DNA from: Chiloscyllium plagiosum | Lineage: Eukaryota | Reading direction: 5' to 3' | Assembly (NCBI RefSeq): GCF_004010195.1 | Contig: NC_057753.1 | Coordinates: forward strand, 12,659,631-12,723,630 | Length of the DNA: 64,000 nucleotides | Shown here: positions 7,061-54,336 of the stretch, in pieces | Position numbering within the stretch: position 1 is the first letter of the stretch | How the letters are laid out: every line of letters begins with the position of its first letter | Translations under genes and position numbers: made by a program | Notes under the pieces: model-generated | Seen by the model: only the letters and a program-made list of their open reading frames with translations | Databases searched by the model: none | Told to the model about the DNA's origin: nothing

Positions 7061-9272
7061 TTCTAACGGGACTGAGAAGTTCTCTGAGCTCAGGGATTTT
7101 TCCATTTGGTTTAATTTTAGCTGGCAACATAGAGAAGCAGGTATAATGGAAAGAGGATCCATGCTTCAGTCAATGATCTATGACTGATCCCCTCTGCAAG
7201 CTCTCTCTTGTACGAACCTGTGTTTGAATTTACCTTTTTTTCCAAGTGGTGTGTTTGTGGGGTTATTCCAGAAATTGGAACAGCGTCATTAAATTCCAAC
7301 AGAGTCGGTTGGTTTCTCAGATAATTTAAGTCATTGTATACTCTATTCTATTCTGTTCTTGTTTCAAACTGTAGTCTCTCCATAAATTCTGTTTTGTTAA
7401 AAACTGAATGGTTTGACCAGATATGTCGGTCATGGAATGTTCACGTTTATTTGTTAAAACAATGAGAACAATTAGAGTCTGGTCTCCCTTGTTGAAATGT
7501 TTAAAGGGGTCTGGCTTGATCCAGAATACATATTACCTCAAAAAAGCATGAAGAAGATAAGCAGAAATAAAAGAAGCAACAGAAAGAAAAGGGAACGATC
7601 AGGTCACCTCGTCCCTTCCTCCATGAGACGCACAGCCTGGAATTCAAAAACAAAGATTCATCCATTCATCAGCGAACACAGACGAGTGAATCATCGCCGC
7701 ACGATGCAGCAAGAATTTCGCCATCACCACCGTCAAGTACCCTGGCCCAGGCTAAGCTTCGAGACATGCCACTTCAGCTGCCATTGAAACTGCGTCCCTG
7801 TTGTGTCGCATTTTTTTGTCTGCATTATTCTTCTGCTACGTTTCCCCAAGTTCTTTCAAAGTCAGTTGTGTCTCAGTAAGATATCTTTTTGTCCATTCAT
7901 GACAGAAAAGTGCACAGCATTCTGTTGCTAATTATGATGGATCGATTTCTGAGTTAAAGGGTTTGAAGGGAGCAACACATAACTTTGATAAAGTAAGTGT
8001 GTTTCACAGGGTTTTCTCTGTTTTGGACCCTTGGTGATATTTTCTTCAGATATTGAAGGATACACTCCCAATTTTCTGTATTTGGTATCGTGCTTTAGTA
8101 CTTTCAAGTCATGCAGATAGTCAATTATTGTGATTTTAGAGGAACTGTATATGAAACATATGTGGCAGTATTCCACACAACGACTTGAAGTCTTTATTAG
8201 AACCCTCATCATGTGTTCAAAGCTGATGCTTTCGCAAAATCCCGTGACGACCTGGCTTCTTAGCGAGGTTCTTATTCATAAAAGCTGGTTTCATTTCCGT
8301 CTGAATACTCCAAATTAAAATTGCAAACAAACATGCTAATTATCTGCATCTCAACTTTAATGCACATTGTAATGAATATCACCGAATTAATAGTTGCTTG
8401 TTAATAGAGTATACTTTCTTTTATTAACTCCTGTAAACTGTTAAACTGTCGTGCAATTCCCTCGTGGGTCGTTTTCATCCAAATGGCGGTCCATCATAAA
8501 AAAAAACAAAAGCCAGTTTCGATTGGAGCCTTCTGGAGGGAACTTGCGTCAGATCACATGGGCACTTGATCTGATTTTTGGCAGACAAACTACACTGACC
8601 TGAATTTGCATATGGATATTGTGCCAGTTTTTGTGCAACTTATCAAGGCGCTAAACCAGATTTATGCACAAGTACGAATGTCCTGAATCAGGTATATTTG
8701 TACTAAGTGTAACAGTCTAAACCTGAGGGTTTTGTTATAATACCAGAAACGTCGTGACGTATCAGTGAAGACGTGAGTTCATGCATCTCGAATGTAACTA
8801 CTTTGAGGGATTTATCGATAATTTTGTTGCAACCAATTGCGTTACAGGCTTTCAAAATCATTTTGACCTTGGCGAATGATCAAACAAAAAAAAATAATTA
8901 TCCTGAGTGAGAAGATGGTTATGTCCTCCAAGACAATTTATTTTTGTCAGACTGTTCAGTAATTCAGATGTTCACTTTGACCCAAAATCCTAGTAACTGT
9001 CTTTCTTTTATGTGATGGAACGCAATTTGGACACTTCTACAAACTCCGACAATTTCCTTTTGGAGCAAAAACTTAGCCCATGGTAAACAATCGATTCCGT
9101 TGTATCAGAAGCTTCAGTCAAACAGCAGCTGCACTAACCTGTTTTTGCTTCAGTAATTGGTAATTAATGTAAATGATGTAATATCTGATTTTCTCCCTGG
9201 GGACTTACCACCCTCTACAACAATGATCCTTTTTGCTGTGAAGTGCATAATGCACTGGCGCTTTCGTTAGAA

Positions 9273-9342
9273 ATGCACGGAATACCAGAAGGTCAGGTGT
9301 TTGCCATCTACTACCCCATCATTGCAATAATTGGAGTGCCAG
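9273..9342 (+). CDS. GPR139-like orphan GPCR copy A, coding exon 1
   Basis: ATG..MHGIPEGQVFAIYYPIIAIIGVP + G, then a GT donor (ccag|gtgacg). 70 nt, phase 1; joins exon 2 to give the TM1 motif GVPAN. Confidence 0.85.
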
Positions 9343-10758
9343 GTGACGTATAGAACTTCAGCTGTAACTTCATGTGTCATAACTTAACTGCATTAGTTCT
9401 TCATTTTGCCGCTAACAAGTCCCCATGATAGATATTGATACTGCGTTTAACTGGTGACGTTTATCACTTCAATGGTACAAATTATTCTGCGTATTCGATA
9501 AAATTTCTGTATTTTAATGCCATCATTCTCTCCATTCACCTCTTTGCCTGGTCACTTGACGTTATAATTTGTGTCATTGGCTGAGGTTTTTTCCCTCCAT
9601 CTGAATATTTTATTCTCTCTCATTCAAAGTTGTACTCTAGGACTTTATCCACATAGTTTCTTTGAAGGACCAGCTTAATTTATCTCTTCAATGTTTGTGT
9701 GCCTTTATGCGCCAAGTTACACTTCACCACTTGAATACTTTCCCGATTTATCATTATCATCTCAAGATGCAAACATCGTTCTATTTTTTTCATTCACTGT
9801 CTCTATGAGGGATGAATACTATCAGTATCTCGGTTGAATGCAGTTATGCTGTATTATTGGCAACGCTTTTAACCTACAATTACGACAACGTTACTGCAAT
9901 GTAAACGTGTTGGATTTTAGCTTAAAATATGCTTGTTAATGGCGCAGAAATATAAGATATTCTGTTGCATTTATAGCAGAAGTAATGGTTTAGTTGGTTC
10001 TAATTATCCAGGATTTATTCTTTTTTTCCAGGTTTCAGTATCGTCATAAATTGCGAAATTAAGGCCCTTATTCAGGAAGTGGAGGGTTGGGTATTGGATG
10101 TTTCAGAAAATAGGAAACTACCCGCTAGTTAGTTTAACATCTCTCAAACTGTTTACTTTCAAATTCATTGTAAAATTCATTGCAACAGGACTATTGAGAT
10201 AAAAGTAGCCAGGCATTATAAATGTACTTTGTCAAAACAAATCCTCATTAAACTTTATTGGACTTTATAAAAAAATCGTAACATAACGTGTGGAATATTT
10301 GAAAAACGCAGATTTCCAAAATGTATTTGGCAAGGTATCATATCAATGGTTAATGTGAAGATTAATTGACATGGTATAAGAATTGTTGCATTTGCGTAGA
10401 TAGATAAACTTGCTAACAGGAAACCAAGAGTTGGCAAAATGGTTTTTTATTGGTACAATGCAAACTTTGGCATAGCCCATATTTTAGTGCTGATTCTTTG
10501 AACTTTTAGAATGTTTATGAATACCATGGATAACGGTAAGAAGGTATCATTATAAAATATCATACGTCTCAGAAATAGATTTGAACATATGTTTCAAGAG
10601 TATGTAAGCTGGTTCTTAAAAAAAAAGTCAAGTGAGCAGAGAAAACTGATAATCAGACTGTAATGTGAGATAAATGTGAAATTGAGTACTTTGGACGAAA
10701 CAGTGAAAACCAAGCAAAATGTCCAAATGATTAGCATTTGCAGAAGTTATTTTACATG

Positions 10759-13245
10759 TAGAGTCACAGAGTCATAGAGACAAACAGCACGGAGACAGAC
10801 CCTTGATTCCAACTCGTCATGCCCACCATATATCCCAACCGAATCTAGTCCCACCTGCCAACACCTGCCTATATCACTCTAAACATTTCCTATTCATATA
10901 CACATCTAGATGACTTTTAAACATAGCAATTGCACAGGCCTTTACCACTTCCTCTGGCAGCTCAATCCATATCTCTACCACACTCTGCGTGAAAAGGTTG
11001 CCCCTTAGGTCTCTTCTTTATCTTTCCCCTCTCACCCTAAACCTTTGCCGTCTTGTTTGGACTCCCCCACCCCAGAGAACAGTCTTTGTCTATTTATCCT
11101 ATCCATGCTCCTCATGATTTTATAAACCTGTATAAGGTTGCCCCTCAGCCTCCGATAATCCAGGGAAAACAATCCTAGCCTACTCAACTTCTCCCTATGG
11201 CTCAAATCCTCCAACCCTGGCAACATCCTTGTAAATCTTTCTGAACTCTTTCAAGTTTCACAACATCTTTCCGATAAGAAGAACAAAATTGCACGCAATA
11301 TCCCATCAGCAGCCTAACCAATGTAGCGTATAGTCGCAAAAAGACTTCCCAACTCCTACACTCCTGACCAATAAAAGAAAGCATACTAAACGCCTTCTTC
11401 ACTATCCTATCTACCTGCGACTCACTTTCAAGGAGCTATAAACTTGCACTCCAAGGTATATTTTTTCCGCAAACTTCCTAGAACCTTACTATTAAATGTT
11501 GAAGTCCTGATAAGATTTGCTGTCTCAAAAAGGAGACTTCACCTTTACCTAAATATATCTCCATCTGCCACTTCTCAGCCCATTGGCCCATCTGAACAAG
11601 ATACTATTGTAATTTGAAGTAACTGTTTTCGCTGTGCACTGGACCTTCAATTTTGGTGTGATCTGGAATCTTCCTAACTATACCTGTCATTTTCACATTC
11701 AAATCATTTCTCTTAATAATGAAAGGTAGTTGACCCATTACCGATCCTTGTGGAACTCCACTGTCATAGGCCTCCAGTGTTAAAAACAACCCTCCACCAC
11801 CACCGTCTGTCTTCTACCTTTGAGCCAGTACTGTATCCAAATCGGTAGTTCTACGTTGTATTCGATGAGATCTAATCTTGCTAACCAGTCTCCCATGGGG
11901 AACCTTGACAAACGCTTTACCGAAGTCCATATAGGTCACAACTACCGCTCTGTCCTCATCAACCCTCTTGGTTCTTTCTTCAAAAAAAGCTCAATCAAGT
12001 TTATTTGAAATGAGTTTCCACGCACAACGCAATGTTAACCATCGCAGATCAGTCCTTGCCTTTACAAATACATGTCCATTATGGGCATCAGGATTCCCTC
12101 CAGTAACTTGCCCAGCACCGATGTCAAGCTCACTGGTCCATTGTTCCTTGGTTTGTCCTTACCACCTTTACTCAACAGTGGTACCACGTTAGCCAACCTC
12201 CAATCTTCTGGCACCTCATCTGTCACTATTAATGATACAAATATCTCAGTAAGAGGCCGATCAATCACCTCCCTAACTTCCCACCGAGTTCGAGGGTACA
12301 CCTGATAAGGTCCTAGGAAATTTATCCACGTTTATGCGTTAAAGACAGCCAGCATTTCCTTCTTTGCAATATGGTCATTCTTCAAGCCGTCACCATCTAT
12401 TTCACTACATTCTATATCTTCCATGTCTTTTCCTACGGTAAATACCGGTGCAAAAGAGTCGTTTAGTGTCTCCCCATCTCCTGCGGCTCCACACAATTAC
12501 CACCCTCCTGATCTTTGAGGGACACTATTCTCTCCCTCGTTACTCTTTTGTCATTAATGTATCTGTAAAACCCTTTGGATTCTCCGTAACTGTATTTGCA
12601 AAAGTTATCTCAGTCCCCTTTTTGCTCTCCTGATTTCTGTCTTAAGTATACTCCTGCTGCCTTGATCATCTAAGGATTCGCTCGATCTGTCGTGCCTGTC
12701 CATGTCATACGCTTCCTTCTTTTTCTTAACCAACCCTCTACTTATTTAGTCACCCAGCATTCCCTGTATCTCACAGCCCTTCCTTTCACCTTCAGAGCAA
12801 TAGACCTCTTCTGGACTCTCGTTGTCTCATTTTTGAAGGTTTTCCATTTTTCAGCCGTCCCTTTATCAGTGATCATCTGCCCCGAGCTAGCTTTTGAATG
12901 TTCTTGCCTCATACCGTCAAAATTGGCCTTTCTCCAATGTTGAAACACAACTTTTAGATCCGGTCTGTCTTTTTACATCACTAATTTAAAACTAATAGAA
13001 TTATAGTCGCTCGCCCTCAGTCCTCCCCCACTGACACCTCAGTCACCTGCCCTGCCTTATTTCCCAAGAGTAAGTCAAGCTTTGTACCTTCTCTAGTAGG
13101 TATATTCATATACTGAATCAGAAAATTTTCTTGAACACAATTTACATATTCGTCTGAGTCTTAACACTTAACACTCTGGCAGCCCCACTCTTTGTTCAGA
13201 AAGTTACAAATCCCTTCCATAACCAGCCTATTATTCTCACAAATG
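10759..13245 (-). mobile_element. CR1/HER1-type LINE in GPCR intron (antisense), copy A
   Basis: RT peptides EDWRLANVVPLLSKGGKDKPRNNGPVSLTSVLGKLLE and SGVPQGSVMG; C-terminal LFSLDYRRLRGNLIQVYKIMR; 3' tail of ATGACTCT-like repeats. Confidence 0.9.
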
Positions 13246-14084
13246 GATCTCTGAATGCAAATGCGCAGACGCATTAAGTGACTGGGATTGTTAATTCAAA
13301 TCACTGTTAATTTCAAGAGAAATTAAATTCTAGTATCGTGTAGGTATTCTTGAGTTTCAGGGACATAATGAGACCACAACTGACGTACTGCCCACCGCAG
13401 TGAGCTTTTCAGTTGGAAAACATTTGGAAGCATTTCAGATAAGGAAACATTATCAGGTTGATTCCTGGCTTGGCAAGACTGCACACAAAAGGTCCTTGCG
13501 ATTATCAGCTGGAGAACTCAGTGTGACATTCCCAAAGTCAGAGAAATACAAATTGGCGCCTCACCTACATCTGTTTCAGCATATGTCTTTACAAAGCAAT
13601 TGCTGACATGGATAACAGTGAGTGTTTTCACCGAATCTCGTTCGCAGGAATCGGATTTGATCCTGAACTAAGCGTAACCTGCGTCTCAGCCAGCTTCCAC
13701 ACTCAGTAATAATCGTTTTACTATTTCCCCACTGTAACATTTTCTGCTATATTTTGCTGTTATCGTTCTCTAGTACACCTAAGTGATCAAATGAACGTCG
13801 ACTGGCTGATCAACTTAGTCAGGAAATGTAACTGTAGACATGATTCTCCGTTAAAAATCCAACAAAATATTTTGCAATCTTATATCATTAACAAAGATAT
13901 GTTTCAGCTGGATGTGTACTTTAAATACAGTTATTTTTGCATTTCCTGCAAGCTATAAAGGCCATAGAGTTATATCATTCAAGAGCATTCAATAAAGTGG
14001 ATAATTTTACTGGAAACTGAAAAATAAATTATCCATTCGTCCATTTTATGAAACACAAATGGTCTCTTTCTGTTTCTGTTGCAG

Positions 14085-14983
14085 CTAATTTGGCTGTGAT
14101 TGCGATCTTGCCTCGAAGGCAATGTGGTTTGTCTGGGTGCATGATACTTTACCTGGTGTCCATGGCGGTGGCAGACCTCCTGGTCCTGGTAACCTGTGTA
14201 ATATTAAACCGGATACCTGGGATTTACTTTCCATACAGTTTTCTGTCCATTACTCCAGTTTGCAGTTTTCGTGCTGTCTTAAATTCCACCACTGTAGACA
14301 GTTCTGCTTGGTTTACTGTCGCTTTCACCTTTGATCGATTTGTGGTGATTTCTTGCCAGAAGCTGAAAATAAAATATTGCACCAGAATGGTCGCAGCATG
14401 GGTCATAGGAATCGTATCTACGCTGTGTTGCATAAAAAATGCATTTTTGTATTTTATATATGAACCTGTGTACACAATTAACAATGTATCCTGGTTCTGC
14501 AACATAAAATTGATATTTTATGAGTCACCTGTTTGGACCGCATATGATTTACTTCGTAGCATTTTCAACCCTCTTCTCCCATTCGTTCTGATTTTACTGC
14601 TCAATGCTTTGACGATTAGATATATTCTTCTGGCCAATGGAGCCCGAAGGAGACTCAGGGAGGATAGTCACAGAGAGAATCAGAGTGACCCAGAGATGGA
14701 GAAGAGGAGAAAGTCCATCACTTTACTCTTTGCCATTTCAGGCAGTTTCCTTTTGTTGTATTTGTTATCTTTTACAACGATCCTCTATGTCCGAATTGTG
14801 AAAGTGACCTATTTTTCAGGTTCACTTTTCAGCAAATCGTCATTTATCCTTGAGGAGAATGCATTTATGCTTTTATTTTTGTGTTCCTGCATCAATCCGT
14901 TTATTTATGCTGGAACCCAAAATAAATTCAGAGACGAATTAAAGAATGGGTTGAAATACCTGCTGCGTCAATTTCGTAAATGA
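14085..14983 (+). CDS. GPR139-like orphan class A GPCR copy A, coding exon 2 (322 aa with exon 1)
   Basis: Acceptor tttctgttgcag|ct and an open frame to TGA. Seven hydrophobic segments with MAVADLL (TM2), AFTFDRF (TM3), an ECL2 Cys and NPFIY (TM7). Family assignment is by recall of the shark GPR139-like expansion, not by a search. Confidence 0.9.
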
Positions 14984-15205
14984 TTCGAAATTGGAAAATA
15001 TGAATATCAATCATGCACAATTTTCCAGAGGTACAACGTAACAACACCGTGATTGTAACGATGCAACGTAAATAGGCAGAACTTGTGGTATCATGGTTCC
15101 TGTATGTTTTATTCACTTGTTTATTTTTATTTCACCAGCAAAAAGAACATTAGTTGTCCTCTGTAATTGCAGGTTTATTCTAAACTATGGTGGCGACTGG
15201 TATGA

Positions 15206-15211
15206 AATAAA
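15206..15211 (+). promoter_or_regulatory. Candidate polyadenylation signal of GPCR copy A
   Basis: AATAAA about 220 nt after the stop, conserved at 42358-42363 in copy B. Confidence 0.55.
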
Positions 15212-15463
15212 TTGAAACACTTTTTCTTGTAAAATTGACTAAAGCAATGTTTAATTTACTTAAGTGATGTTGATGGTCTATCGTAAAAGTAATTGAGGTG
15301 TTGCCCATTGTGACATAGGTGGAGGCAGATGGCAATGCTTTGTGAGCAGAAATTCGAGAGAATGCAGTGACGAATCAGAGAGGACCTGATGTACGATAGT
15401 CAATTCTTATTTAACTTGTAGGAGAAACGCAGCACAATAGCATCTGAGACAGAAATGGTTTTG

Positions 15464-15600
15464 TCTGAGAGCTCAGTAACTCACAGTAGAGTGAGTCAGT
15501 TTCAGATCCGTGATAGTTTAACTGGTGAAGTTATTTACTGTCTGGAGCTCTAAACAGGTACCAACCAAAATCCACTTTATATAAGAGCCACTCGAATGTC
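15464..15600 (-). pseudogene. V pseudogene V-b, copy A (3' part only)
   Basis: Minus strand reads TITDLKLTHSTVSY*ALR, matching FR3 LTI..LKLTDSAVYYCALR. Leader and FR1-2, present in copy B, are deleted here (~345 bp). Confidence 0.65.
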
Positions 15601-16199
15601 TCCACAGAATGCAATGAAACTGATCGGAACTTTGTTAGCTTGAATTGATTGGAAGAATTTCGAAACGGTTGAAGACCAGCGATCACACAGGACGCTTTCC
15701 TACCATTTTTCGCACGTGCACTGCTTTGAATCACATGCCGGTAGTTAAAAATTATTATTTTATGCGACATGAATATCGCTGTTTTTTTAGCATTTATTGT
15801 TCATCCCTAATTTCTCTGGAATTCAGTGTGTCCAATTGCCTGAGCACTGGTAGTAGTGACTCCCGTGATCTGATCTCTAGATCAGTTTAATTCGAAGGAT
15901 TCCGTATTTTTTTCACAAAGGTCAATATGCCAGTCATAATATAAAGATGGAATGTGCTATTATTGAGCAAACAGATCTGAAGAACATATTAAATTCTTAC
16001 TCTTAAAACACATTCCAAAATCTGTCCTCGACTGTACTTTAAGTTTCATATACTGTTTGTGTTCTAACTCCAATTAGCTGCCCTTCTCCGTGCCTGTCAG
16101 TATAGATGTGATAATCTACAATCTTCAGATTCTGGATTTGCAGTGAGAGAATACAAAGAAAGCAGTATCATTCATATTATTTTTACATTTACCACTCAT

Positions 16200-16800
16200 T
16201 TATTCACAGTGCCAATCGACAGCCTGAGGACACCAACTTGCAACAATTCCACTTGTATGCAACTGGACCTTAAACCACTGTGACCTGGTATTTTACGTAT
16301 TCATCTAGATGGTTGTTAAATGTTGTGTGAGTTTCCAACTCCACAATCATCCGAGGCAGTACATTCCATATTTCGCCCACCTCCACATAATATCCTTTTT
16401 CTCAGGTTGCCTCTGCACTTCTTCGTCCTCATCTTAAACACATGCTTTCCGCTCTTCGACACGTGCCCCTTTGGAAAATAAAATCTCTCGAGATTTTCTA
16501 TCTCTTCCGATGATTGTTGGACACACCTCAATCAGATTCTCCCAAACCAAGTTGTGTTTGTTCAAAGAGAAACATATCCAACCCGAGGCTTTTCGTTGCA
16601 ATCAACATCCTGCTTTGTATTGTCTCCAGTGCAATGGGGGTTTTCCCATTGAGTGACGAACAGAATGACACGTGGTTTTGCATCTCTGGCATAAGCAATG
16701 TTTTATGAATTTGCAACAAAACTTCCTTGCTACTGCATTCAACGACCCAACTAATGAAGGCAAACAGACTATTCGCCTTGTTCATCACCCTCTCGACATT
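16200..16800 (-). mobile_element. Decayed CR1-clade LINE 3' fragment (also ~43700-44290)
   Basis: KANSLFAFISWVVECSSKEVLLQIHKTLLMPEMQNHVSFCS, a CR1 C-terminal signature. Confidence 0.7.
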
Positions 16801-17099
16801 TTTTTCTATTCTGTTATGAAGTTGTAGGCAAGTACTGTTCCTTTAAGAGAGGTTGAAAGCTGGCAAGGACTGAACAAACAGAATATGCTGGAAAGTTTAA
16901 AAATGTAACATCTGGAACTGAAACAAATACCAGGAGCAGAGTTGCTATGTTACACAACAAATTCGAATTTGACCAATCAGTATAAATTATGCTCCAAGAT
17001 ACCAATATCCAATCGAATTTGATTTTTAATGTTTTTACGACATCAAACCAATGAGTTGATCCGACGATTTGGGGTATAGAACTCGGATATATTGAACAG

Positions 17100-17330
17100 T
17101 TACAGAGCGGCAAAGAACATCATACTGTCTGCAGACTCTCTCTCTGAAAGTTAAATTGCCCGCAGTGAAGCTGTCTTGGAAGATATCGTTTCACATGAAA
17201 TCTGTGAAGAAGAAGACCGGAGAAAATAAGACAAGAAGATACCAAGGGAAAAGAGGCAGCTGGCTTGCTTCGAAATTTGATTTTTTTAAACATATTCGGG
17301 GGTGGGTGTTACCAGATCAGTCTATTGTTG
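17100..17330 (-). pseudogene. Possible highly decayed V relic (also ~44590-44820)
   Basis: Scattered motifs in V order: PWY, FQDSFTA, ADSM(M/V)FF.AL. No clear RSS. Confidence 0.3.
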
Positions 17331-17549
17331 CAGAGTGGGAGGTAGATAGCTCCTTTATGCAAAGGAGGCGTACAGTATAGATAGTGGTTCTTTAATCCTA
17401 CTGTTCTTCTAGAAGTAAACTTTTTTTTATTTAAATAATAAATTTTTGTCACTCATACTTTAACAGATTATGAGTTGAGATGAGCTTTTCTGGGTGTCTG
17501 GTTCAATTTAGCAGAAGGATTTATCCCGAGTGGTAACAATTCATTCAAG

Positions 17550-22881: not shown

Positions 22882-22904
22882 ACAGGAAGTGACATCAAAT
22901 AAAA
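22882..22904 (+). promoter_or_regulatory. Candidate V promoter: Ets (GGAAG) + CRE-like (TGACATCA) + TATA-like (ATAAAA)
   Basis: ACAGGAAGTGACATCAAATAAAA about 100 nt upstream of the V-d leader ATG. CRE-like motifs are established features of TCR V promoters. Confidence 0.55.
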
Positions 22905-25847: not shown

Positions 25848-25879
25848 TTTGTCACTTATCACCTTCCATTTCAGACCCC

Positions 25880-42115: not shown

Positions 42116-42625
42116 TTAGAAATTGGAAAATGAGAATATTCACTATCAACCATGTACAATTTTCCAGAAGTAATAACGTAACAACACTGAGACTGGAAAT
42201 GTGCAATTTAAAAAGGCATAACTTTTCATAGCAATCTGTAGTATCATGGTTCCTGTAGGGTTTCTTCGCTTTTTGTTTTCACTTTACCAGCATAAAGAAC
42301 ATAAGTTGTCTGCTTTAATTGCAGGCATTTTGTAAACTATGGTGGCGATTGGCATGGAATAAATCGAAACACTTTCTTTGGTAAAATTGACTGAAGCAAT
42401 GTTTAATTTAATTAAGTGATTTTAACTGTCTATCATACAAGAAACTGAGTTATTTCCCAGAGTGACGTAGGTTGAGGCAGACGGTAATGTTTTATAAGCA
42501 GAAATACGAACGAATGCAGTGATAAATCAGAGAGGATCCGATGTATGATATGCAGACATGGTCAATTTTGATTTAAATTAAAGAAGAAACGCAGCACAAT
42601 AGAAAGTGAGACATGAATGGTTTTG

Positions 42626-43001
42626 TCTAAGACCTCAGTAGCTCAGTGTAGAGTGAGTTATCTTCAGACCCACGACAGTTTAACTAGTGAATTCTGGAGT
42701 TCAACATACTTTTCAACCAAAATTGGTTTATATTAGAAGCACTCGAATGTCGCCTCAGATTATATTCGGGCTTTGAATCTCGGTGTTGTTGGTACAAGAA
42801 TAAGTAACAGTCAGTCCAGGTGCGGTCATCGGAACAGCTTCAAATCATCCCTTCTCCGTCTGTCAAAAAATCTGATGACATCAGCTGAGTGAGAATCCGT
42901 TTCAAATTATACCCAGAAATGAGACAGAAAATAGAATGTGATTAGACAAACTTACCTGTCAGAAATGCTCGCTGTGTAACGCGAAACCCAAACAGCTGCA
43001 T
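42626..43001 (-). pseudogene. V pseudogene V-b, copy B
   Basis: Leader 43001-42956 MQLFGFRVTQRAFLT with GTAAGT donor; acceptor mutated. V reads TQLMSSDFLTDGEGMI*SCS...YLFLYQQHRDSKPEY...TVVGLKITHSTLSY*GLR. Confidence 0.75.
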
Positions 43002-46000
43002 TGTCCTGAACGCTCTACATAAGGAGTGTTTAACATTTGAAGTCACTGGTTGTAATCTATACCCTGGATAGTCTTCATTCATTTACCATCTCAATGGCTT
43101 CTGCTCCCGGAATGCAATGAGACTGATTGGAACTGTTTAGCTTGATTTGATTGGAAGCACTTCAAAATGTGTTAAGACCAGCGATCAGACAGGAGGATTT
43201 TCTTCCACTTTACAGACGTGCGGCTAATTGAAACAGACACCTGTTGTTTAAATTTATTATTTTATGCGACATGAATATCGTTGCTTTGGTTACTATTTAT
43301 TGCTTATCCCTAATTTCTCTGAAGGTCTGCGTGTCTAACTGCCTGAGCACTATTAGTATTGACTCCCATGATCTGACCTCTAGACCATTTTAATTCGAAA
43401 GATTTCGTTTTTGTCTTCATAAAGATCAACACACCCGTCATAATATAAGGATGGAATGTGCTTTATTTAGCAAGCAGTTTCGAAGAACGTACTAAATTCT
43501 TACACTTAAAACCTGTTTTAAACGCCGTCCTCGACTGTAGCTTAAGTTTAATATGCTGTTTGTGTTCTAACTTCAAGGAGCTGCCCTTCTTCGTGCCTGT
43601 TAGCATTGATGCGATAATCTATAATCTTCAGATTCTGTATTTGCAGTGAGAAAATACAAAGAAAACACCTTTATTATTATCTGTACATTTACCGCTCATT
43701 TATTCAGTGTCAATCGACAGCTTGAGGACACCAACCTGCAACAATTCCACTTGTCTACAACTGGATGGTAAACCACTATGCCCTGGTATTTTATGTATTC
43801 ATCCAGATGATTATTCAATGTTGTGTGAGTTTCCAACTCCACAATCATCCCAGGCAGCACATTCCATATTTCGTCCACCTCCAAATGATTTTATCTTTCT
43901 CAGGAGGCCTCTGCACTTCTTCGTCCTCATCTTAAACATATGCTTTCTGGTATTCGACATGCGTGCCTGTGGAAAATCAACTCTCTCGTGCTTCTCTATC
44001 TCTTCCTCTGATTATTAAACACACTTCAATGAGTTGTGTTTGTTCAAAGAGAAACACATCCAACCCGAGTCTACTCATTACAGGCAATATCCTGCTGAAT
44101 CTCCTTTTTATTTTCTCCAGTGCAAACAAACATTTCCCGTTGAGTGAAGAACAGAAATATACGTGGTATTGCATCCCTGGCTTAAGCAATGTTTTATGAA
44201 TTTGCAACACAATTTCTTGCTACTGCATTCAACGACCCAACTACTGATGGCAAGCAGACCAATTGCCTTCTCCACCACCCTCTCGACATTTTTTCTATTC
44301 TGTTATGAAGTTGTCTGCGTGCACTGTTCCTTCAAGAGAGTGTGACAGCTGGCAAGGACTTAACAAACAGAATGTGCAGGAAATTTTAAAAAATGTAACG
44401 TTTGGTTGTGAAACAAATAGCTGGAGCAGAGTTGCTATGTTACTCAACAAATTCGAATTTGACAAATCAATTAAAATTACGCCCCAAGATACCCAAATCT
44501 AATCGAATTTAAATTTTAATATTTTCACGACATCAAACCAATAAGTTGATCCAATGTTCTGGGGTATAAAACTCGGACATTTTGAACAGTTACGAGAGCG
44601 GCAAAGAACACCATACTGTCTGCAGACTGTCTCTCTGAAAGTTAAATTGCCCGCAGTGAAACTGTCTTGAAAGATATCGTTTCACATGAAATCTGTGAAG
44701 AAGAAGACTGAAGAATAGAAGACAAGAAGATACCAAGGGAAAAGCAGCAGCTGGATTGTTTCGAAATTTGATTATTTTTTACATATTCGGCGGTCGATGT
44801 TACCAGATCAGTATATTGTTGCAGAGTGGGAGGTAGATAACCCCACCAGACAAAGGAAGCGTACAGTGTAGATAATGGTTCTTAATCATATTGTTTTCGA
44901 GAAGTGAAACTATTTTTTATTTAAATAGTAACTCTTTGTCACTCATGCTTTAACAGATTACGAGTTGAGATGAGCTTTTCTGGGTGTCTGGTTTAATTTA
45001 TCATAAGGATTTATCCCGAGTGATAACAATTCCTTCAGGGGATGACGACATGACTGCCTGGGCCAGCATGTAAGCAGTTAAGACTCAACCACATTGCTGT
45101 GCATTTGAAGTCACATTTAAATCAGGTGTGCATGACAGTTTCATTCTCTGATGCACATTACTGAAACAGTTGAGCTTTTCTAACAATCAGCTCAAATTCC
45201 ACCATCTGCCATGGCAGGATTCGAACACTGGTCCCCAGAACCGGACATGGGCCTCTGGATTAACAGTCGAGCGAAAATGGTACCAGGTTATCTTCTGCGT
45301 TCACACATAAGTCGTTCATGCATATTGCGGGTTGCAGCATGGACACTTGTGGCATGCCACTGGTCACAGGCTTTCAATCACAAAAATAACGTTTCTTCAT
45401 GACCTTTTCCCTCCTTTCTACAAAGTATTTTTAGGTCTTTGTCAAAAGCTGCATTGAGGTTTTTCTTTTGGGCAAGCTTTTCACGCAGGAACCTTGTCAT
45501 AGATCTCAATGAAGTACTTGTGAACAACTTTGATGTAGTCCCTCTACCAATACATTCATTTGCTTTTCAACAAGAAACACATTTAAATTAAACAGACTCC
45601 ACTTGCAGAAAACTGTGCACCTGAATCAAAAGATGTTTTTGTTTCGCTACACTCGTTCAGGCCCTCATTCACCATTAATAGTTTACCCTGTTTTGACTTT
45701 CCAAATTGCAGGACCTCAAACTTATCTATAATAAACTCCACTTCTCATTTCTCTAAACACTTGTCCAGGTGGTGAATATCGTGCTGCAGTTTATGATAAC
45801 TTTGCTCACTATCTGCGTTAGCTCCTTCTTTAGTGTCCTGTGAAAACCTAGTAATCATCCCTTCTGCATTTTCATGCAAAACATTGCTATAAATAACAAA
45901 CAGCAATGGGTCCAGCGGCCTCCCCTGAAGGCGGACATTTGCCACAGGTCCCCAGTCCTTCCAATATTATGCTCTGCTTCCTACCATGAAGGCAATTTTG

Positions 46001-46352
46001 GACTCAATTTTGCAACTCCCTCCCATTTCATGCGATGGAACCTTCCAGAACAGCCTACCATATGGAACATTATCAGAGACCTTACACCCACAACAAAAGT
46101 CTCGCTGACTATTCCTAGTCAGTCCCTGCCATTCTAAATGCATTTTATCACTTAGGATCTTGCAAAGCAATGAAATTAAATTTGTCAGCTTACAAATGTT
46201 TGCACCATAATCTGCTTAATGCAATATTGTTATGACATTTGTCTCCACATGATGATGTGGCAAACGAGGCTATCTTCCATTCCACATTTGCACAACTACT
46301 CTGCGCTATGAATATGGAGTTGTTGCTTCAGGTCATCGGTGTGAGAACGCCA

Positions 46353-46630
46353 TTAGATTAGATTACTTTACAGTGTGGAAACAGGCCCTTCGGCCCAACA
46401 CGTCCACACCGACCGGCCGAAGCGCACCCACCCATACTCCTACATTTACCCCTTACCGAATTTAGCATGGCAAATTCACCTGACCTGCACATCTTTTGAC
46501 TGTGGGAGGAAACCGGAGCACCCAGAGGAAACCCACGCAGACAATGTGCAAACTCCACACAGTCAGTCGCCTGAGGCGGGAATTGAACCCGGGTCTCTGG
46601 CGCTATGAGGCAGCAGTGCTAATCACTGTG
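46353..46630 (-). mobile_element. HE1-type tRNA-derived SINE (V-SINE-like), near full length
   Basis: Minus strand: gtgattagcactgctgcctc (A-box region), GGTTCAATTCC (B box), central GGGTTTCCTCTGGGTGCTCCGGTTTCCTCCCACA domain, (AATCT)n tail. Confidence 0.9.
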
Positions 46631-46938
46631 CAGCTGGTGTACACCTCCGTGATTAACAAGTTAGATGTTTGCACTTGGTCTGCGGTATCTCTGCATCAGT
46701 GTGAAGGCTTCAGAGTTCATAATACATGGTGCTTTCCGTTGACCAGCCTCAAGATACCTAACATAAACAGTTTATTTCATTTCTGAAAGTTAAAATAGAT
46801 TCTGTCCTGCAATTTTGGAAACTTGCAAACGTCCTCCATGTATCGTCAGTAAATATCTCAGAATTATCCGGGGATATTGGATGTCCAAGTCTAGGTTTCC
46901 GCCAGTGTATGTTGTCAAGTTACGGCAGTGCAGTTAAT

Positions 46939-47234
46939 TCCTAGAGGAATTCCTGGAGGCATGGCATTCATCCACAAACTTCATCAACAAACACATCGAC
47001 CTGGACCCAATATACCAACCACTGCAGCGGACAGCTGAAACTGACATCCGGAAGCGGCAGGGACAGACCAGTATAAACACCGGAGGAAACATCAAAGAAG
47101 CGCTTCGCAGGAGGCTCCCAAGCACTGATGATGTCGCCTAGCCAGGGGACGAAACGTTTGCAACAAAAACTTCCAGCTCGGCGAACAGAACCACAACAAC
47201 GAGCACCCGAGCTACAAATCTTCGCACAAACTTT
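46939..47234 (+). mobile_element. 5'-truncated Penelope-like element, copy-B-specific
   Basis: 11-bp duplication GTGCAGTTAAT at 46928-46938 and 47235-47245; empty site at ~19176-19188 in copy A. Confidence 0.9.
47122..47161 (+). ncRNA. Minimal type I hammerhead ribozyme motif (Penelope-associated)
   Basis: Same 40-nt motif as 4699-4738, with intact CUGAUGA and GAAA cores. Confidence 0.75.
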
Positions 47235-47299
47235 GTGCAGTTAATATGCTTACCGTTCGGATTCAGGTGGATATGGTGGCGCTGAAGTATTTTCACTCG

Positions 47300-47519
47300 T
47301 TCTTGTGCTACAAATCCAAAATGTTTCCGTGTTTAGGGAAACTGCTATTCCTCTCCTCGTCAGGATGAAATGTGATTCCAGGCCCACAGCTTTGTTTTTG
47401 ATTCTTAAGTGCCATTCTGGCTTCAGGGACTGGTAATAACTGTTGTTCAAACCTGTTTCTTTTAGTGACAACGTGGTCGCAGACGCTGCAGTGTATTACT
47501 GTGCGACGCAGACATAGTG
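47300..47519 (+). pseudogene. V pseudogene V-c, copy B
   Basis: DAAVYYCAT followed by CATAGTG (47513-47519). Copies A and B carry different changes at heptamer position 3, consistent with an ancestral CACAGTG. Confidence 0.7.
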
Positions 47520-50500
47520 AGAGGAACAGTGGATATGGCCACCAGTTTCTTGCATTGTGATTCCTGTCTGATTTCTGTTAAACATTCCCCAAAACAAGAA
47601 ATTTACAAAAACTAGTGATTTCACAATTCATAAATTCATTTCTCATTAATTGACAAAATCTTAAGACGATGATAAATTGTAGACAATTATGTTAAATCGG
47701 GCATTGTACACGTGCAATATTAAAAGCATATTCATGGACAGAAGCAGAGGACTNNNNNNNNNNNNNNNNNNNNNNNNNNNNNNNNNNNNNNNNNNNNNNN
47801 NNNNNNNNNNNNNNNNNNNNNNNNNNNNNNNNNNNNNNNNNNNNNNNNNNNNNNNNNNNNNNNNNNNNNNNNNNNNNNNNNNNNNNNNNNNNNNNNNNNN
47901 NNNNNNNNNNNNNNNNNNNNNNNNNNNNNNNNNNNNNNNNNNGCACAGAAGCACTTTATTTATGTATTATTATAATTGTATGTTGAATTTGTTAAGATTT
48001 CATCCTGTTTTGCAGCTAATTCTTTTCATCTGGAGACGTTTCCGAGATCACTTCATCATGGAATTGTTGGACAGACAATTGACTTTAAGACATGTCCACT
48101 GCTACTTGACTTTGTATTCTGCTGCAGACAATCCCGTTATTATTAGCTTACCTCCACATTTATGTAAGGAAATCAATCAGTAATAGCATTGCCCATCTGA
48201 ACATCCCAGTGATCGGAAAAATGAACTGCAGCAGCAGCTTGGGGCCCTGACTGTATCAGTACGCAGAAGCATTAGACACACTTTTCTTGCAGTTGTAGGT
48301 CAATGCGACATTCTCTATTTCCTCATTTTTTTAAATCGGAAAAGAGGTGTTCCACTGTATCATGCTGGTTCAATTTTAATACATGGAAAACAGATGAAAA
48401 AATGACAACCAATATCTTTGCCACCACTTCTCTTATTCGACCAAGAATAATATTTGTATTGTAACAGTCAATTTGTCTTTTTCTCAGAAGAAAATATTTA
48501 CTGAGAATAGGTACAAAGACGAGGGGCGGTTTGAGTCATCTCCAAATATTGATTTCTCACTTTGGACTTCTGCAGTGCAGTATATTTTCTGTCAAACCAT
48601 ACATGCAGATCACTGCCCAACTGCGTTGCTGATCGAATCGATGACAAGAACGGCGTATGGCAGTAATTTCTCAAACAACACTGACAAATTGTTTATGCTA
48701 GAAATGAGAAACAAAAGCAGAAATTGCTGGAAAACTTCAGCTGGTCTGGCAGCACCTATGGAGCAAAATCAGAACTAATGTTTCGTGTTAAATGATGGAT
48801 CACTGCCGAACTGCTAAGTCTGTTTTCTATCCATAGACGCTGGCTGACCTGCTACGTTCCCAAGCAATATTTGTTTGCTTCTCCAAGGACACTCTCAGCT
48901 GCAGTCGGAACAGATAGAGTAAAATAGTAACAGTGTCGTCTCCGAACTGTGACCTGCTGTTTAAATATGGAAGACATTACTTGTCATGTTTCAATTCTCT
49001 ATATCTTCATTAATAGCCCCAGCGTGGATTAACGTTATCCAGTTTCAAGTCTAAGTGGGGAAATAAGGTTTCCAAATATCAGGTCCACTTCCGCCATCCT
49101 GGTTTAGAGAATGGTTAATGGTACAGCCGGGACAGAGAAGCAGAATAAAGAAATATTCTGTCGATCTGCAGCTTCACACATGCATTGTCAGTATTTACTA
49201 TTCTAATTCGAGGAAATCAGTCAAATGTGTGTTGCTGAGAAAGCACAGCCGATCAGGCAGCATCTGAGGAGCAGAGAATCGACGTTTAGGGCATAAGCCC
49301 ATACTGGAAATGTATGTCCCTTCATCAGGTGTCATAATCCCTCAGATATGTGTGACAAATGTTGAAAGACTTATAGGGCTTATGCCCAAAACTTCGATTC
49401 GCCTCCTCCTCGGATATTGCCTGACCTGTGGTGCTCTTCAGTCCTTACTTTCTCCTAATTCGAGGAACTGTGAAGACATTCCTATTATTTAAATATGCAC
49501 CTGACAATATGTGTTTGATGACTATTATATCGAAAATGAAAAACATACTGAAGGAATACATATTCTCCTGATGATTAGTGATCAAAGAAGCATTTTAATT
49601 TTAACGATCAGAATTTTAAACTTGCCTTTGTCCGACAGGTTGTATTTTAAATTAAATTCACTATCACTCTTTGTTGGAACTATGATCACACATATATCTG
49701 TGGAAAATGTTGAAAGACTGACAACTTTCTGAAAAAAGAAATTCTTCCTCATCTCTCTCTTAAGTGAAGCTGTGGGGAGCTCAGTTGGCACAGTGCAAAT
49801 AAATTAATGTGAACTTTCCAATCTGAAACCAACACGAAATGAGTTACTTTTTTCTTCACGCTGCGGGTGTTCCAGACGGTAATAATCCAAGGTCCAGAAT
49901 TCAGTCTAATTCCTGCCCTGGTCTCCATAGCATTCACTGCTGCCAGTCTGATTTGAGGAACCGATGAATAAATGAGCTGTGAGCTCTTGGATCGCACCTG
50001 CTTAATCTGTCAGCAATGAGCCAGCAGAGAGACTGGATATTATTCAACATTAACGGAATTCTTGAATTCAACAATTTCATTGTCAGTCTATTTTGTATAA
50101 ATCCGTATTCACAGCGTAGAATCAAGACTTTTGCTTTCAATGCATTATTTACAAAGGCATCTGTCACAATTGAAACTAATGTTAAAATGTACACAATGTT
50201 TCACATAAAGGCATTGTCAACGTTGTTGTAATTATGCATTCTCTCTCTTTCTGCACTGTTGCGTTATCAGTTGGTATTTGGTGCCATAGCTAGATGATGA
50301 CATTTCAAAATTTCTGCAAGTCGTGGCCTGCACATTCTGTCTCTCAAGAGTCGGGTTCAGCAATGACATTTGAAGACTTTGCAAAGACCGTTAGTTAAAA
50401 ACATTCGACCACTGCTGTTACTATTTAAACTTTGCAAAAATGTGATCAGATTTGATATAAAACATAGACATTGTTGATCTGCTCTGTTATCAGACCTAAG

Positions 50501-51385
50501 CGGGCAGGAGCGGTGGTGGTTCCACTAAGATTGCCCATTTGTTAAATGGGGGATTTTCACTATTTGTTATCTGTTGCTGTCTGACACCATGATATGTTAA
50601 TGAGAGACGCAGGGGCAGGAATCGAATAATCTGAAAGGCTAAACGACTGTGAAAAGAAATACGTTGATTACTAGCACTAAGAAAGTAATTGGAAGAGCAC
50701 AATGCCTCTACATGACTGCTCCTATCGACTCAGAATAAATAAGAGTGATTTCAGATGCAAATTAACTTCACAGTGAGGCATTGGCAGAGGAAATTGGGTG
50801 CAGTCACTAATTCTCCCTTAAAATGCACGTGAAATGTCCGGTTTCATTCGTAACTATTCCCATGTGTATTTGTAAGCTGCCTTACATAAAGTGACACCAT
50901 AAAATCTTTGCCTGCTGCATCCCACATAGAAATTTCCCAGTCACCACTTCACAAACTCAGTCTGACTTGTGAAAAATGAGCGTCTCAATCTAATTTCAAC
51001 AACTGCATTCTTGCACGGAAACTACTTATTTCCGATCATTAAACGGTAAGGCGACTGGTCCGCTCAGTTTTACTTGAAGCTGAATCTCAGACCCAGTTAA
51101 AAATCAAATTGGTTCAACATTTAGTGAGTTTGCAAATTGTCCCTTTTGTCAGTTAGTGGCAACCTGACTGTGTTTACGCATCATTTTCTAAACATCCGAG
51201 CGCACCATTAATGTCTCTCTTCTTTCACACAAACTTTGACGTTGTCAGAACTCGTTCATCCTATCACATTGTACACAGGACGTGACATCAAATAAAAGGC
51301 AGCCAGTGCTGTCACCTTTGTGTTGTCTGATGTTGTTGTGGTTTCTGAGGCACAGAAATATTTCTCACATTCCGGTGCAGCAGTA

Positions 51386-52484
51386 ATGTGTCTCTCCATT
51401 GTGTCTCTGGTCTTGGTTACTTCCATTATTGGGAATAACTAAATTTTTAAATCGCAGTTATTTTCTCGAGGAATAAATTTGACAAATACAATACTTGCTT
51501 TTGGCAAGTATCAGAGCTGGATTGGAACACTTTTTGTTTTTTACATACACTTTTGCGATCTATCTTGCATGAGGAACAAAAGTACACAAAACACAACGTA
51601 GAAGCGAGTTTTGGGGATGATGCTGTATTGAGAGACTATAGCTGTCTCAAAACAGCGTATAAGGTGTTCCTTTGGCCTCTAATGAGAAGACTAACGGACA
51701 ACTGGACTGAAGTATTTAGAATGAAGCAAATATATTTGGCTTCGGACATGGAGAGGAATATACCTCTTGAGAAGAATTACAGATTTGTAAATTTAAATGA
51801 GAAAATGCTAGTGGCACAGACTGGTTCAATGTGGATTTGAAGAGAAATATGTTTAGCCCCAGACCAGGCAGAAAATGCGCTTGTCATTACGACAAGAAAC
51901 ATTTGGAGAAAACAAGAACGATCTATTTAAAAGGAAACCAGATGAACGGGTGCAGATGAAATGGATAAAGTGTTTGTTGTTAGCATGAGTGGAAGAAATA
52001 GGCAAGACGACAGTGTTTACACATGGGCATGAGCCTGGCGGTAAGAATGAACTTTTTTTCTGCTCTCGGTAAGGAAGTGTTGCGAATTTGGTTGAGTTCA
52101 CTCATACATTTTGTCACCGATTGCGGCTTTATCTTACATTGTGTTTGAGATCTGAACGAGGCAGATTCTGTCACTCAGCGGGAGACCTCGCTCACTGAGG
52201 GAGAAGACATCACTTTAAACTGCACCTACAGCGGAAATGATCATTACTGATTCTGGTACTGTCTGTACCCAGACATACAGTCCGAGTTTGCAATCCAGAG
52301 GTAAAAGAGTGGTGTTTCTGAAAAGAAGGCGGATTTCGCTCAGAACCTCTTTTCTGATACCGTCCAGCAGACAGTGAAGTTTGACCGATTGACCATCTCA
52401 GAGCTGGTGCTATCTAACACCGCCGTCTATTAATGTGCAACGACTCAGAGTGATGGAAAAGAGTGAAAGCCTTGTACAATATCT
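51386..52484 (+). pseudogene. V pseudogene V-d, copy B
   Basis: Leader 51386-51431 (donor mutated to GG). V exon from 52150: DSVTQRETSLTEGEDITLNCTYSGNDHY*FWY...NTAVY*CAT. RSS CAGAGTG (52446-52452) + 23 + ACAATATCT. Confidence 0.9.
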
Positions 52485-53990
52485 GCTGCAGTATCTGTTT
52501 AACAGCTGCTGCCTGTTGAAGGCTGTTTATGACGAGTTACACACTGACACTTAGGTACATTCCTGTGAGGAAATGCCTGATGACTATCTGTCAGAAAAAA
52601 TTCTAAAGTCGTTCACATGGAATAGTGATATTGATTATCGAACTAATTATGAGACTTACCTCATTATACTCCCTTGTATTTGGTGATGTGTGGAAAGCCC
52701 GGCTCACTTGCATTGACAATACAGATTTTCAAACTGGCTTGTCATTAACTGTATCCACTGATCTCCTGATGGAGAAAACCTAGAAACTAATCTGTCAAAT
52801 CGTCTTGGATAAGACATACTGAATGAAGAGCAGTCGGTCATTGATGAAAATCTGAATCATCACACTAACCTGATTGAGCATATCTCAATATTGAAGTACA
52901 CATATTACAGATTGAAAATCCACAATAATGTAAGTTATCGAGGAAATATTTTCGGGATATGATGTGAAGTTAACCTTGTATGACGTTATCAGAAAACGAC
53001 TTACAAAGATCTTAAAAGGACTAAAGAATGTGAGGTACAATGAGAAGCTGAGACACTTTTCCCCTGAGAGAAAGACAGGGTAGGAGGTGGAAAGGCGAAC
53101 ATCTAAAGGTCATAAAATCATCATTGGTGCGTAAAAGCTGAATAGCAAATGTCTCAGCCTGGGTAGGCGAGTTCAAACCTGGAGTACAAATTATTAAACT
53201 GAGAGCGGAGAGATTTGAGGTGATTTCGTGGGTAAATTTGTCATGTAGAGTTTGATGCGCACGTGCAATTAATAGCCCGAGAAAGGGGTAGATGCAGGGG
53301 CAATTATAACATCTCAGAGACATTTGCGCAGGCACGTGAATAGGAAGAATTTCGAATGAGATGGACCAAACTCCGCTGAACGTGAATACTTTAGTTTCAG
53401 AAGCCTGTTCGGTCTAAACGCGTTGGACCGAATGAATTGTATCTTTGCTACATTATTCCATGACTCTAATCTGTGAGAACAGGCGCTCTTTGTTCTTGCA
53501 ACATTTGGTATCAAAACATCTGATTTCAAAAAAAAGTGTTTATGTTAGCGAATATTAATCGAGCTTTTAGGAACTTGAACTCATTGGTTCAGGCATTTTA
53601 TGAGTAAAATGTATCTGTTTTATTATTTTCTTGCCTATCCTACAGTGCGATCCTGCTGCTTTGAAATATTCATTGCTGATTGGAAAAGATGGTCAGGTCA
53701 GATATTTTGGGAAGATTTCTTGTTTGAATGTTTATAACAATAGGGAAGAAATTCCTGAATCACTTGCATTGATTATTGTCAGAATGTATTCGATATAAGA
53801 CACAGAGTAAACCGGCCCCAATGATGCGCTGTTAACTTTTAGATTATTCAATATTTGGATACATTTCAATTTTGTGGTTTTGTGAAGGTTATATTTTGAA
53901 AGTATATGTTTCTCTGCAATGGTCCCCCGACGCCCTCCATTCTCCTATCCACACATGCACAATTTAATGAGTGCTGTTTCATTGCGGCAG

Positions 53991-54029
53991 AGTTTTTGTA
54001 CGAGGCTGGCTCTCGTTCCTGTCACTGTG
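53991..54029 (-). promoter_or_regulatory. 23-spacer recombination signal sequence of V-e copy B
   Basis: CACAGTG (54029-54023) + 23 nt + ACAAAAACT (53999-53991). Confidence 0.95.
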
Positions 54030-54336
54030 TCTCTCAGTCCACAGTAATATACTGCACTGTCAGACAGCTGCAGCTCACCAATGGTGAAATTGCCTTCACT
54101 GTTCGACGTGTCCAGAGACGACAAAAATCGAGTCGTCACCCCCTCAGCTCTGACAGGATCTCCGTAGTTAGGAATGTTTATCAAGAACGTCAGAGATTTT
54201 CCGCGGTACTGACGGTACAACTGTAAAGAATATGAAGTATGTTGGATCGAGTAGCTGAATTTAATGGTCACTGAATCTCCTTCGAACAATTTGATTGCAG
54301 TCGGCTCTTGTGAAATCGAGTCTGCACAATTAGCAC
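54030..54336 (-). CDS. TCR alpha/delta-type V exon, V-e copy B (open frame; first Cys>Phe, FR2 Trp>Leu)
   Basis: Acceptor tttctttag|gt. Reads ANCADSISQEPTAIKLFEGDSVTIKFSYSIQHTSYSLQLYRQYRGKSLTFLI...ELQLSDSAVYYCGLR with no stops. Confidence 0.9.

What the first reader, a model, noticed from the sequence alone, without database searches (positions are those of the whole stretch)
7064..54229. A 19-20 kb GPCR+V cassette duplicated: receptor kept twice, V cargo already dead
Seen: both copies keep an intact GPCR with identical exon lengths (70 + 899 nt) and splice sites. The V segments share disabling lesions between copies: V-d has AGG TAA and TAT TAA TGT in both, V-b has Cys>TGA in both, and V-e has Trp>Leu in both. 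So they were damaged before the duplication. Inference: retention of the duplicate may have been driven by the GPCR rather than by V repertoire, with V pseudogenes hitch-hiking. That reverses the usual birth-and-death reading of V clusters.
Basis: partly seen in the sequence, partly recalled or inferred. Interest (0 to 1): 0.7.

Follow-up and report, generated by a model that had tools for sequence, protein, structure and literature searches.

The report
Ordinary duplication in shark TCR array
A stretch of a shark's T-cell-receptor gene array was copied in tandem with two receptor genes and several mostly dead gene segments, which is likely ordinary gene birth and death; the one segment called dead for lacking a key tryptophan is intact in one copy and resembles a family that nurse sharks express without that tryptophan or the usual cysteine.

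Summary
The duplication is real and lies in a shark TCR alpha/delta-type V array. The GPCR pair (exons 70 + 899 nt) is intact and under purifying selection (dN/dS 0.26). V-a, V-b, V-c and V-d share stops, so they likely died before copying.

(1) V-e's Trp>Leu is no lesion: 11 of 11 open-frame relatives have it, and so do expressed nurse shark alphaV10 cDNAs. Copy-2 V-e has leader, splice sites, open frame and RSS; copy-1 V-e was cut by the breakpoint. (2) The unit is larger (about 32 kb; about 45 kb in the other copy by my reconstruction) and also carried exon 2 of a second GPCR, broken in both copies by private lesions. (3) In older duplicated blocks nearby, 0 of 5 GPCR pairs kept both copies, against 7 of 13 surviving V pairs (P = 0.10).

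Best reading: birth-and-death acting on both families. The scan has noted GPR139-like genes among shark and skate V segments in other genomes. The side result, a V lineage lacking both Cys23 and Trp41, is the more interesting part.

The parts
7064..25847 (+). Copy 1, the part alignable within the window (the unit extends upstream through window 3812-7063 and into C44:12,627,893-12,637,457)
33819..54229 (+). Copy 2, the part alignable within the window (29294-33810 belongs to the unit but is absent from copy 1)
9273..9342 (+). GPCR copy 1 exon 1 (70 nt)
14085..14983 (+). GPCR copy 1 exon 2 (899 nt), open; branch dN/dS about 0.51
36156..36225 (+). GPCR copy 2 exon 1 (70 nt)
41217..42115 (+). GPCR copy 2 exon 2 (899 nt), open; branch dN/dS about 0.16
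15464..15610 (-). V-a remnant, copy 1: Cys104>TGA shared with copy 2, plus a private 352-nt deletion
42600..42890 (-). V-a remnant, copy 2
18918..19255 (-). V-b remnant, copy 1: Cys104>TGA shared; decayed RSS at 18951
46682..47310 (-). V-b remnant, copy 2, interrupted by a 306-nt repeat insertion
19415..20230 (.). Three further short V fragments in copy 1 (19415-19470 +, 19906-20034 +, 20068-20230 -); partners at 47477-48321
21896..22187 (+). V-c remnant, copy 1 (alphaV10-like by motif, shared TAA stops); partner 50294-50589
23718..24005 (+). V-d pseudogene, copy 1: two shared stops, shared broken heptamer, two private stops
52158..52445 (+). V-d pseudogene, copy 2
25609..25847 (-). V-e copy 1: 3' two thirds with intact RSS (25647-25609), cut at the duplication junction
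25848..28793 (+). Start of the next unit: decayed retroelement-like DNA, 89.9% to the intron of the upstream GPCR at C44:12,627,893-12,630,856
   Evidence: weak RVT_1 hit E 0.018, below cut-off; junction bridged by contigs of runs X4 and X5
53991..54557 (-). V-e copy 2, structurally intact: leader exon 54557-54506, GT-AG intron, V exon 54336-54030, RSS CACAGTG-23-ACAAAAACT; Phe at Cys23, Leu at Trp41
28794..29293 (.). 500-N gap; contig C65937 and the contig C44:12,637,958-12,662,941 (reversed) fit here by end-to-end similarity (inferred)

Best explanation
This is a real tandem duplication inside a shark TCR alpha/delta-type V array that copied GPCR genes and V segments alike, and the copies are likely being sorted by ordinary birth and death, with no gene family shown to have driven the event. 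Shown: a junction joins the 3' part of V-e to the intron of an upstream GPCR (GPCR-0); the unit holds GPCR-0 exon 2, the GPCR pair of the finding, seven dead V remnants and one V that is intact in copy 2. Inferred: the break cut one V and one GPCR; later unequal exchange or gene conversion left a patchwork of 4-15% divergence. Purifying selection has so far kept both copies of the second GPCR, copy 1 probably less strictly. The long-run fate, judged from older blocks, would be loss of one copy.
For: Junction and unit extent; junction bridged in runs X4 and X5; X4 also bridges 54229 into the intact V-e. GPCR-0 exon 2 broken by different lesions in the two copies. V-e copy 2 intact, dN/dS 0.29 against its paralog at C44:13,119,987 and 0.21-0.35 against 9 family members. 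Census in 864 kb: 16 of 31 GPCR exon-2 loci open, 17 of 65 V loci with open frame and RSS. In the about 75%-identical blocks, 0 of 5 GPCR pairs kept both copies against 7 of 13 V pairs with a survivor. GPCR branch dN/dS 0.51 (copy 1) against 0.16 (copy 2), difference P = 0.055. The family is large: 131 matches scored in this genome, a lower bound.
Against: Both young duplications (window; C44:12.90-12.97 Mb) keep two intact GPCRs and none of their 10 V pairs is doubly intact. GPCR loci are open more often than V loci (odds ratio 3.0, P = 0.02) despite the larger target. The GPCR exon 2 pair sits in the most diverged segment (13-14.5%), as if it escaped homogenisation. The old-block contrast is not significant (P = 0.10) and blocks overlap, so pairs are not independent. 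V 'intact' there means frame plus RSS only; at least one such V (C44:13,196,609) seems to have a damaged splice acceptor. V-d shows dN/dS 0.38 between copies (P = 0.035 against a neutral simulation), which a gene dead before copying should not show; I read this as chance among several tests.
Confidence: 0.72

Rival explanations
1. GPCR-driven retention: the duplicate was fixed because a second, diverging GPCR copy was useful, and V debris hitch-hiked.
For: dN/dS 0.26 with both copies open. Neutral survival 0.002-0.05 per copy. Both young duplications show this pattern. GPCR loci are more often intact than V loci. 30 of 322 residues differ.
Against: An intact V was in the unit. A second GPCR exon died in both copies. 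Older pairs lose one GPCR in 5 of 5 cases. Copy 1 is not significantly below neutrality on its own branch (P = 0.08). No expression was shown.
Confidence: 0.15
2. Two old divergent haplotypes or paralogous blocks were brought into tandem, or three units exist. The GPCR pair is then older than the junction and the 'cassette' never duplicated as one piece.
For: The unit's ends differ by 4-6% while the GPCR segment differs by 13-14.5%. A third partial copy with GPCR exon 1 (C44:12,641,568) is closer to copy 2 on its left and to copy 1 on its right (informative sites switch near 10,065). Contig depth in X4 is 13-19 over copy-1 21.7-24.3 kb against 3-9 over the matching part of copy 2 (the tool warns this is no copy number).
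Against: It is compatible with the best explanation and differs only in history. No third exon 2 or third V-c/V-d copy above 76% was found in the assembly.
Confidence: 0.1
3. Assembly artefact: the two copies are haplotypes scaffolded in a row.
For: Copy 1 lies on a 25-kb contig between two 500-N gaps. The neighbouring contig appears reversed and misplaced.
Against: Copies differ by 4-15%. Runs X4 and X5 (2 samples, 2 studies) each hold contigs of both copies at 97% or better. The novel junction at 25847 is bridged in both runs.
Confidence: 0.03

Closest known systems
Birth-and-death evolution of antigen-receptor V arrays by block duplication (Nei, Gu and Sitnikova 1997; seen only as a reference line in PMC2275272; content recalled)
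   Same: Tandem blocks of mixed age, many pseudogenes, survivors under purifying selection.
   Different: The blocks also carry a second multigene family of GPCRs that goes through the same cycle.
Olfactory receptor genes interspersed with TRAV1 at the 5' end of mammalian TRA/TRD (PMC2275272, passages)
   Same: Class A GPCR genes lie among TRA V segments.
   Different: The mammalian case has one or two TRAV among OR genes. Here 31 GPCR loci interleave with 65 V loci over 864 kb, have two exons and best match shark 'probable GPR139' models.
Elasmobranch antigen-receptor complex (PMC12227049; abstract, section 6 and passages)
   Same: TCR alpha/delta V segments share a chromosome with Ig-type C1 exons (C44:0.58-1.36 Mb).
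   Different: Its main text has 0 occurrences of 'GPCR' or 'G protein'.
Nurse shark TCR alphaV10 family (PMC5931798; passages and supplementary file 3)
   Same: Same YSLQLYRQ motif with Leu at 41, an aromatic residue in place of Cys23, similar CDR2 and framework 3.
   Different: Phe here against Tyr at position 23. Identity is about 61% (58 of 95 residues, my count by eye), below the paper's 75% family cut-off. The paper's main text does not comment on the missing residues ('tryptophan' 0, 'disulfide' 0).
Salmonid TRAV1 subgroup lacking Cys23 (PMC8559430; section 16 and passages)
   Same: A TRAV lineage with an aromatic residue at 23, found in productive rearrangements.
   Different: The paper reports no other structural particularity in TRAV1, whereas the shark lineage also replaces Trp41 with Leu. 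Common ancestry was not tested.

Membership tests
TCR alpha/delta V array | V-set exons with leader, intron and 3' RSS with 23-nt spacer | tested here: met
TCR alpha/delta V array | Closest relatives are TRA/TRD V sequences | tested here: met
   Named hits are TCR alpha V; match to nurse shark alphaV10 cDNAs
TCR alpha/delta V array | Translocon with J segments and C alpha/C delta on the same chromosome | tested here: inconclusive
   V hits run over C44:12.2-14.5 Mb. The C1-set search scored only 150 of 625 candidates and listed none near the array. J segments were not sought.
True segmental duplication (not haplotigs) | Both copies and the novel junction present in single individuals | tested here: met
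   Runs X4 and X5; contigs only, no phased long read
Shark-expanded 'probable GPR139' class A GPCR family | 7tm_1 domain, high identity to the shark models, conserved short first exon | tested here: met
   1439 hits, best 83% to a whale shark model; pair groups with whale and zebra shark proteins, support 100/100
GPR139/GPR142 orthologs | Orthology to mammalian GPR139/142 and Trp/Phe sensing | not tested
   The name is an automatic label; other members are labelled GPR15-like or capa-receptor-like
Functional V gene by IMGT criteria (V-e copy 2) | Open frame, splice sites, RSS | tested here: met
Functional V gene by IMGT criteria (V-e copy 2) | Cys23, Trp41, Cys104 | tested here: not met
   Phe23, Leu41, Cys104 (criteria as quoted in PMC8559430). 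It works like a V by family evidence but fails the formal rule.
Functional V gene by IMGT criteria (V-e copy 2) | Found rearranged and transcribed in this species | tested here: inconclusive
   No RNA depth over V-e or either GPCR exon 2 in the 2-6% read from two single-cell runs of one sample; V-f, a conventional V, was also blank
Nurse shark alphaV10 family | At least 75% amino acid identity (paper's rule) | tested here: not met
   About 61% by eye; hence 'alphaV10-like'
Nurse shark alphaV10 family | Leu41 and aromatic residue at 23 | tested here: met

The most novel reading that the evidence does not exclude
Sharks use a whole TCR alpha V lineage with neither the canonical disulfide (Cys23 replaced by Phe/Tyr) nor the core Trp41 (Leu). 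It is multiplied to at least 11 open copies here, under purifying selection, and makes up 45 of 539 nurse shark TCR alpha clones, so an Ig V fold would work in a selected T-cell repertoire without two of its three hallmark residues. Rule-based annotation would score these genes as non-functional.
Probability: 0.6. Interest if true: 0.5.

Novelty: new member of a known kind. Interest (0 to 1): 0.3.

Why it matters
As a duplication it is ordinary. It shows that the large shark GPCR family and the V segments share one birth-and-death process, and it warns that family-wide substitutions can be misread as lesions. The V lineage lacking Cys23 and Trp41 matters for repertoire annotation and gives a natural test of how an Ig V domain folds without its disulfide and core tryptophan.

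Tried and rejected
AlphaFold2 model of V-e copy 2 with the 11-sequence alignment: mean pLDDT 51.7, pTM 0.40; too weak to use, so no fold search was run. Search for longer proteins with V-e: 2 distant fish hits among 80 candidates. Sequencing runs: no RNA holder listed. Laying single-cell RNA runs X21 and X22 gave reads only on repeats (X21) or none (X22; no test), so expression is open. C1-set search did not reach a TCR constant exon. Pfam on retroelement-like frames gave only a sub-threshold RVT_1 hit. No third close copy of GPCR exon 2 or of V-c/V-d in the assembly. The GPCR at C44:7,888,895 shares exons and a little flank but not the V cassette. PMC3222143 (Criscitiello 2010) and PMC7909615 (Ott 2021) are not held; they may describe the alphaV10 substitutions. 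Rejected: conversion as the source of V-d's shared stops, since two stops and a broken heptamer are separated by private differences. Earlier-finding look-ups by place and by V-e sequence were empty.
Full report
Setting. The window is G000:C44:12,659,631-12,723,630. V-set exons with 23-nt RSS run over C44:12.2-14.5 Mb. The receptor's best relatives are shark models labelled 'probable G-protein coupled receptor 139' (1439 hits, best 83%). This genome gave 131 scored matches, 120 without a stop; these are the best-scoring and a lower bound. So this is a shark TCR alpha/delta-type V array interleaved with a large GPCR family. The constant exons were not located.

Observation. Window 7064-25847 aligns to 33819-54229, 9.6% raw divergence over 18,139 columns. 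The two GPCRs have exons of 70 and 899 nt, matching splice sites and 322-aa open frames. Eight V remnants pair up across the copies. V-a and V-b share Cys104>TGA, V-c shares TAA stops, and V-d shares AGG TAA, TAT TAA TGT and a broken heptamer.

The GPCR pair is under selection. dS 0.176, dN 0.045, ratio 0.26 (bootstrap 0.16-0.40), and dS matches the flanking non-coding divergence of 0.16. None of 400 neutral simulations reached so low a ratio. A copy free of selection would stay open with probability about 0.002, or 0.046 if free for half the time. Split by branch with two outgroups, copy 2 has 16 silent and 8 replacement changes (ratio 0.16) and copy 1 has 10 and 16 (0.51; not significantly below neutrality, P = 0.08); 15 changes were unassigned. 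The difference between branches is borderline (P = 0.055).

V-e was misread. All 11 open-frame members of its family that I aligned have Leu at the Trp41 site, and 10 have Phe at Cys23; alignment to solved V domains confirms the positions. Six of the 11 showed leader, acceptor and RSS in my scan. Copy-2 V-e is one of them: leader 54557-54506, in-frame V exon, RSS CACAGTG-23-ACAAAAACT. Its dN/dS against 9 relatives is 0.21-0.35. Two proteins from another carpet shark show the same pattern. In the nurse shark cDNA table, the motif encoding Leu-Gln-Leu-Tyr occurs 43 times against 45 alphaV10 rows. All 21 rows shown carry it and have Tyr at position 23. AlphaV10 is 45 of 539 clones, and 13 of them are in the set analysed for mutation, which the paper describes as in frame. 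Copy-1 V-e ends at 25847, the junction, and has more replacement changes against the outgroup (14 against 9).

The unit is bigger than stated. Window 25848-28793 matches the intron of an upstream GPCR (GPCR-0, C44:12,627,893-12,630,856) at 89.9%. Unplaced contig C65937 continues the match from 12,630,857 to 12,633,146 at 94.3%. The gap-bounded contig 12,637,958-12,662,941, read in reverse, continues from 12,633,219. I infer that both belong in the gap at 28794-29293. Unit 1 is then about 32 kb and unit 2 about 45 kb if that contig's overlap with copy 2 is counted once. The overlap is only 87-96% identical, so a third partial copy is possible. GPCR-0 exon 2 is broken in both copies by different stops and frameshifts. 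The break thus cut one V and one GPCR. Divergence is a patchwork (4.1-14.5%, chi-square 291), which points to later exchange between copies (inferred).

Not an assembly artefact. Runs X4 and X5, two samples from two studies, each hold contigs of both copies at the 97% threshold. Both bridge the junction (X4 25712-26080, X5 25695-25960), and X4 also bridges 54229 into the intact V-e. These are contigs, not phased reads.

One search listed 18 duplicated blocks; I scored 16, leaving out the two that involve the third partial copy, and added two borderline V loci to the intact set. In the 14 old blocks (73-77%) 0 of 5 GPCR pairs kept both copies, while of 19 V pairs 7 kept both, 6 kept one and 6 kept none (7 of 13 against 0 of 5, P = 0.10). 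Blocks overlap and V status ignores splice sites, so this is suggestive only. It still fits young duplicates that have not yet lost a copy better than GPCR-led retention.

Mechanism. Shown: junction, contents, selection on the GPCR pair and on the V-e family. Inferred: a break without clear microhomology produced a tandem duplication; drift or weak selection fixed it; exchange between copies followed; one GPCR copy is relaxing. One result against this reading: V-d has dN/dS 0.38 between copies (P = 0.035).

Literature. PMC5931798: passages and supplementary file 3. PMC12227049: abstract, section 6, passages. PMC8559430: section 16, passages. PMC2275272, PMC7677710 and bioRxiv 10.1101/2025.06.08.657570: passages only; PMC7677710 has no mention of GPCRs or TCR, and the preprint's only GPCR mention concerns SUCNR1 (its supplements could not be seen and may list this family). 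Searches gave no title on this GPCR family in shark TCR loci. Searches gave none on a shark V family lacking Cys23 and Trp41. I saw listings only, and two key papers are not held, so novelty of that point is unproven. A Cys23-less TRAV lineage is already known in salmonids. Earlier notes of this scan report the GPCR-V neighbourhood in other sharks and a skate; these are unchecked leads.

Verdict. Observation partly confirmed, interpretation partly supported, and the claimed reversal of birth-and-death not supported. Interest 0.3.

Noticed in passing
window 53991-54557 (-) and C44:12,298,693; 12,767,995; 12,828,788; 13,119,987; 13,196,609; 13,392,259; 13,419,976; 13,436,227; 13,467,433; 13,504,128: AlphaV10-like V lineage with Leu at Trp41 (11 of 11 open members) and Phe at Cys23 (10 of 11); the member at 12,767,995 keeps Cys23, which suggests Trp41 was lost first.
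   Followed up: yes
C44:12,899,189-12,967,168: A second young tandem duplication (86.9%) with two intact GPCRs (12,906,202 and 12,941,956) and dead V pairs.
   Followed up: partly
C44:12,637,958-12,662,941 (includes window 1-3311) and contig C65937: A gap-bounded contig that seems reversed and misplaced in the scaffold; it holds a third intact GPCR exon 1 (12,641,568) whose exon 2 is not in the assembly.
   Followed up: partly
window 46,000-62,600 against C44:13,109,791-13,128,379: An older paralogous block (75%) without the GPCR; both V-e and V-f are intact in both copies.
   Followed up: partly
window 56866-57165 (-): V-f, an open-frame conventional V (Cys23, Trp41, Cys104) with a 22-nt-spacer RSS at 56863, just outside the duplicate.
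   Followed up: partly
window 2673-3210: Three 181-nt tandem copies, 96% alike, overlapping the start of a dead V remnant at 3146-3300.
   Followed up: no
window 34275-34565: Exact 145-nt tandem duplication present only in copy 2; could be recent or an assembly slip.
   Followed up: no
window 31534-31913 (-): Decayed V-like segment related to the atypical open V at C44:13,006,464, which lacks the usual WY motif and had no RSS in my scan.
   Followed up: no
C44:12,631,659; 12,745,894; window 14085 and 41217: Four related GPCR exon 2 copies are each followed by a dead V-a-type remnant, so a GPCR plus V pair was copied repeatedly in older events.
   Followed up: partly
window 55237-55486, 58899-59206, 62457-62749 (-): Three more V pseudogenes right of the duplicate.
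   Followed up: no
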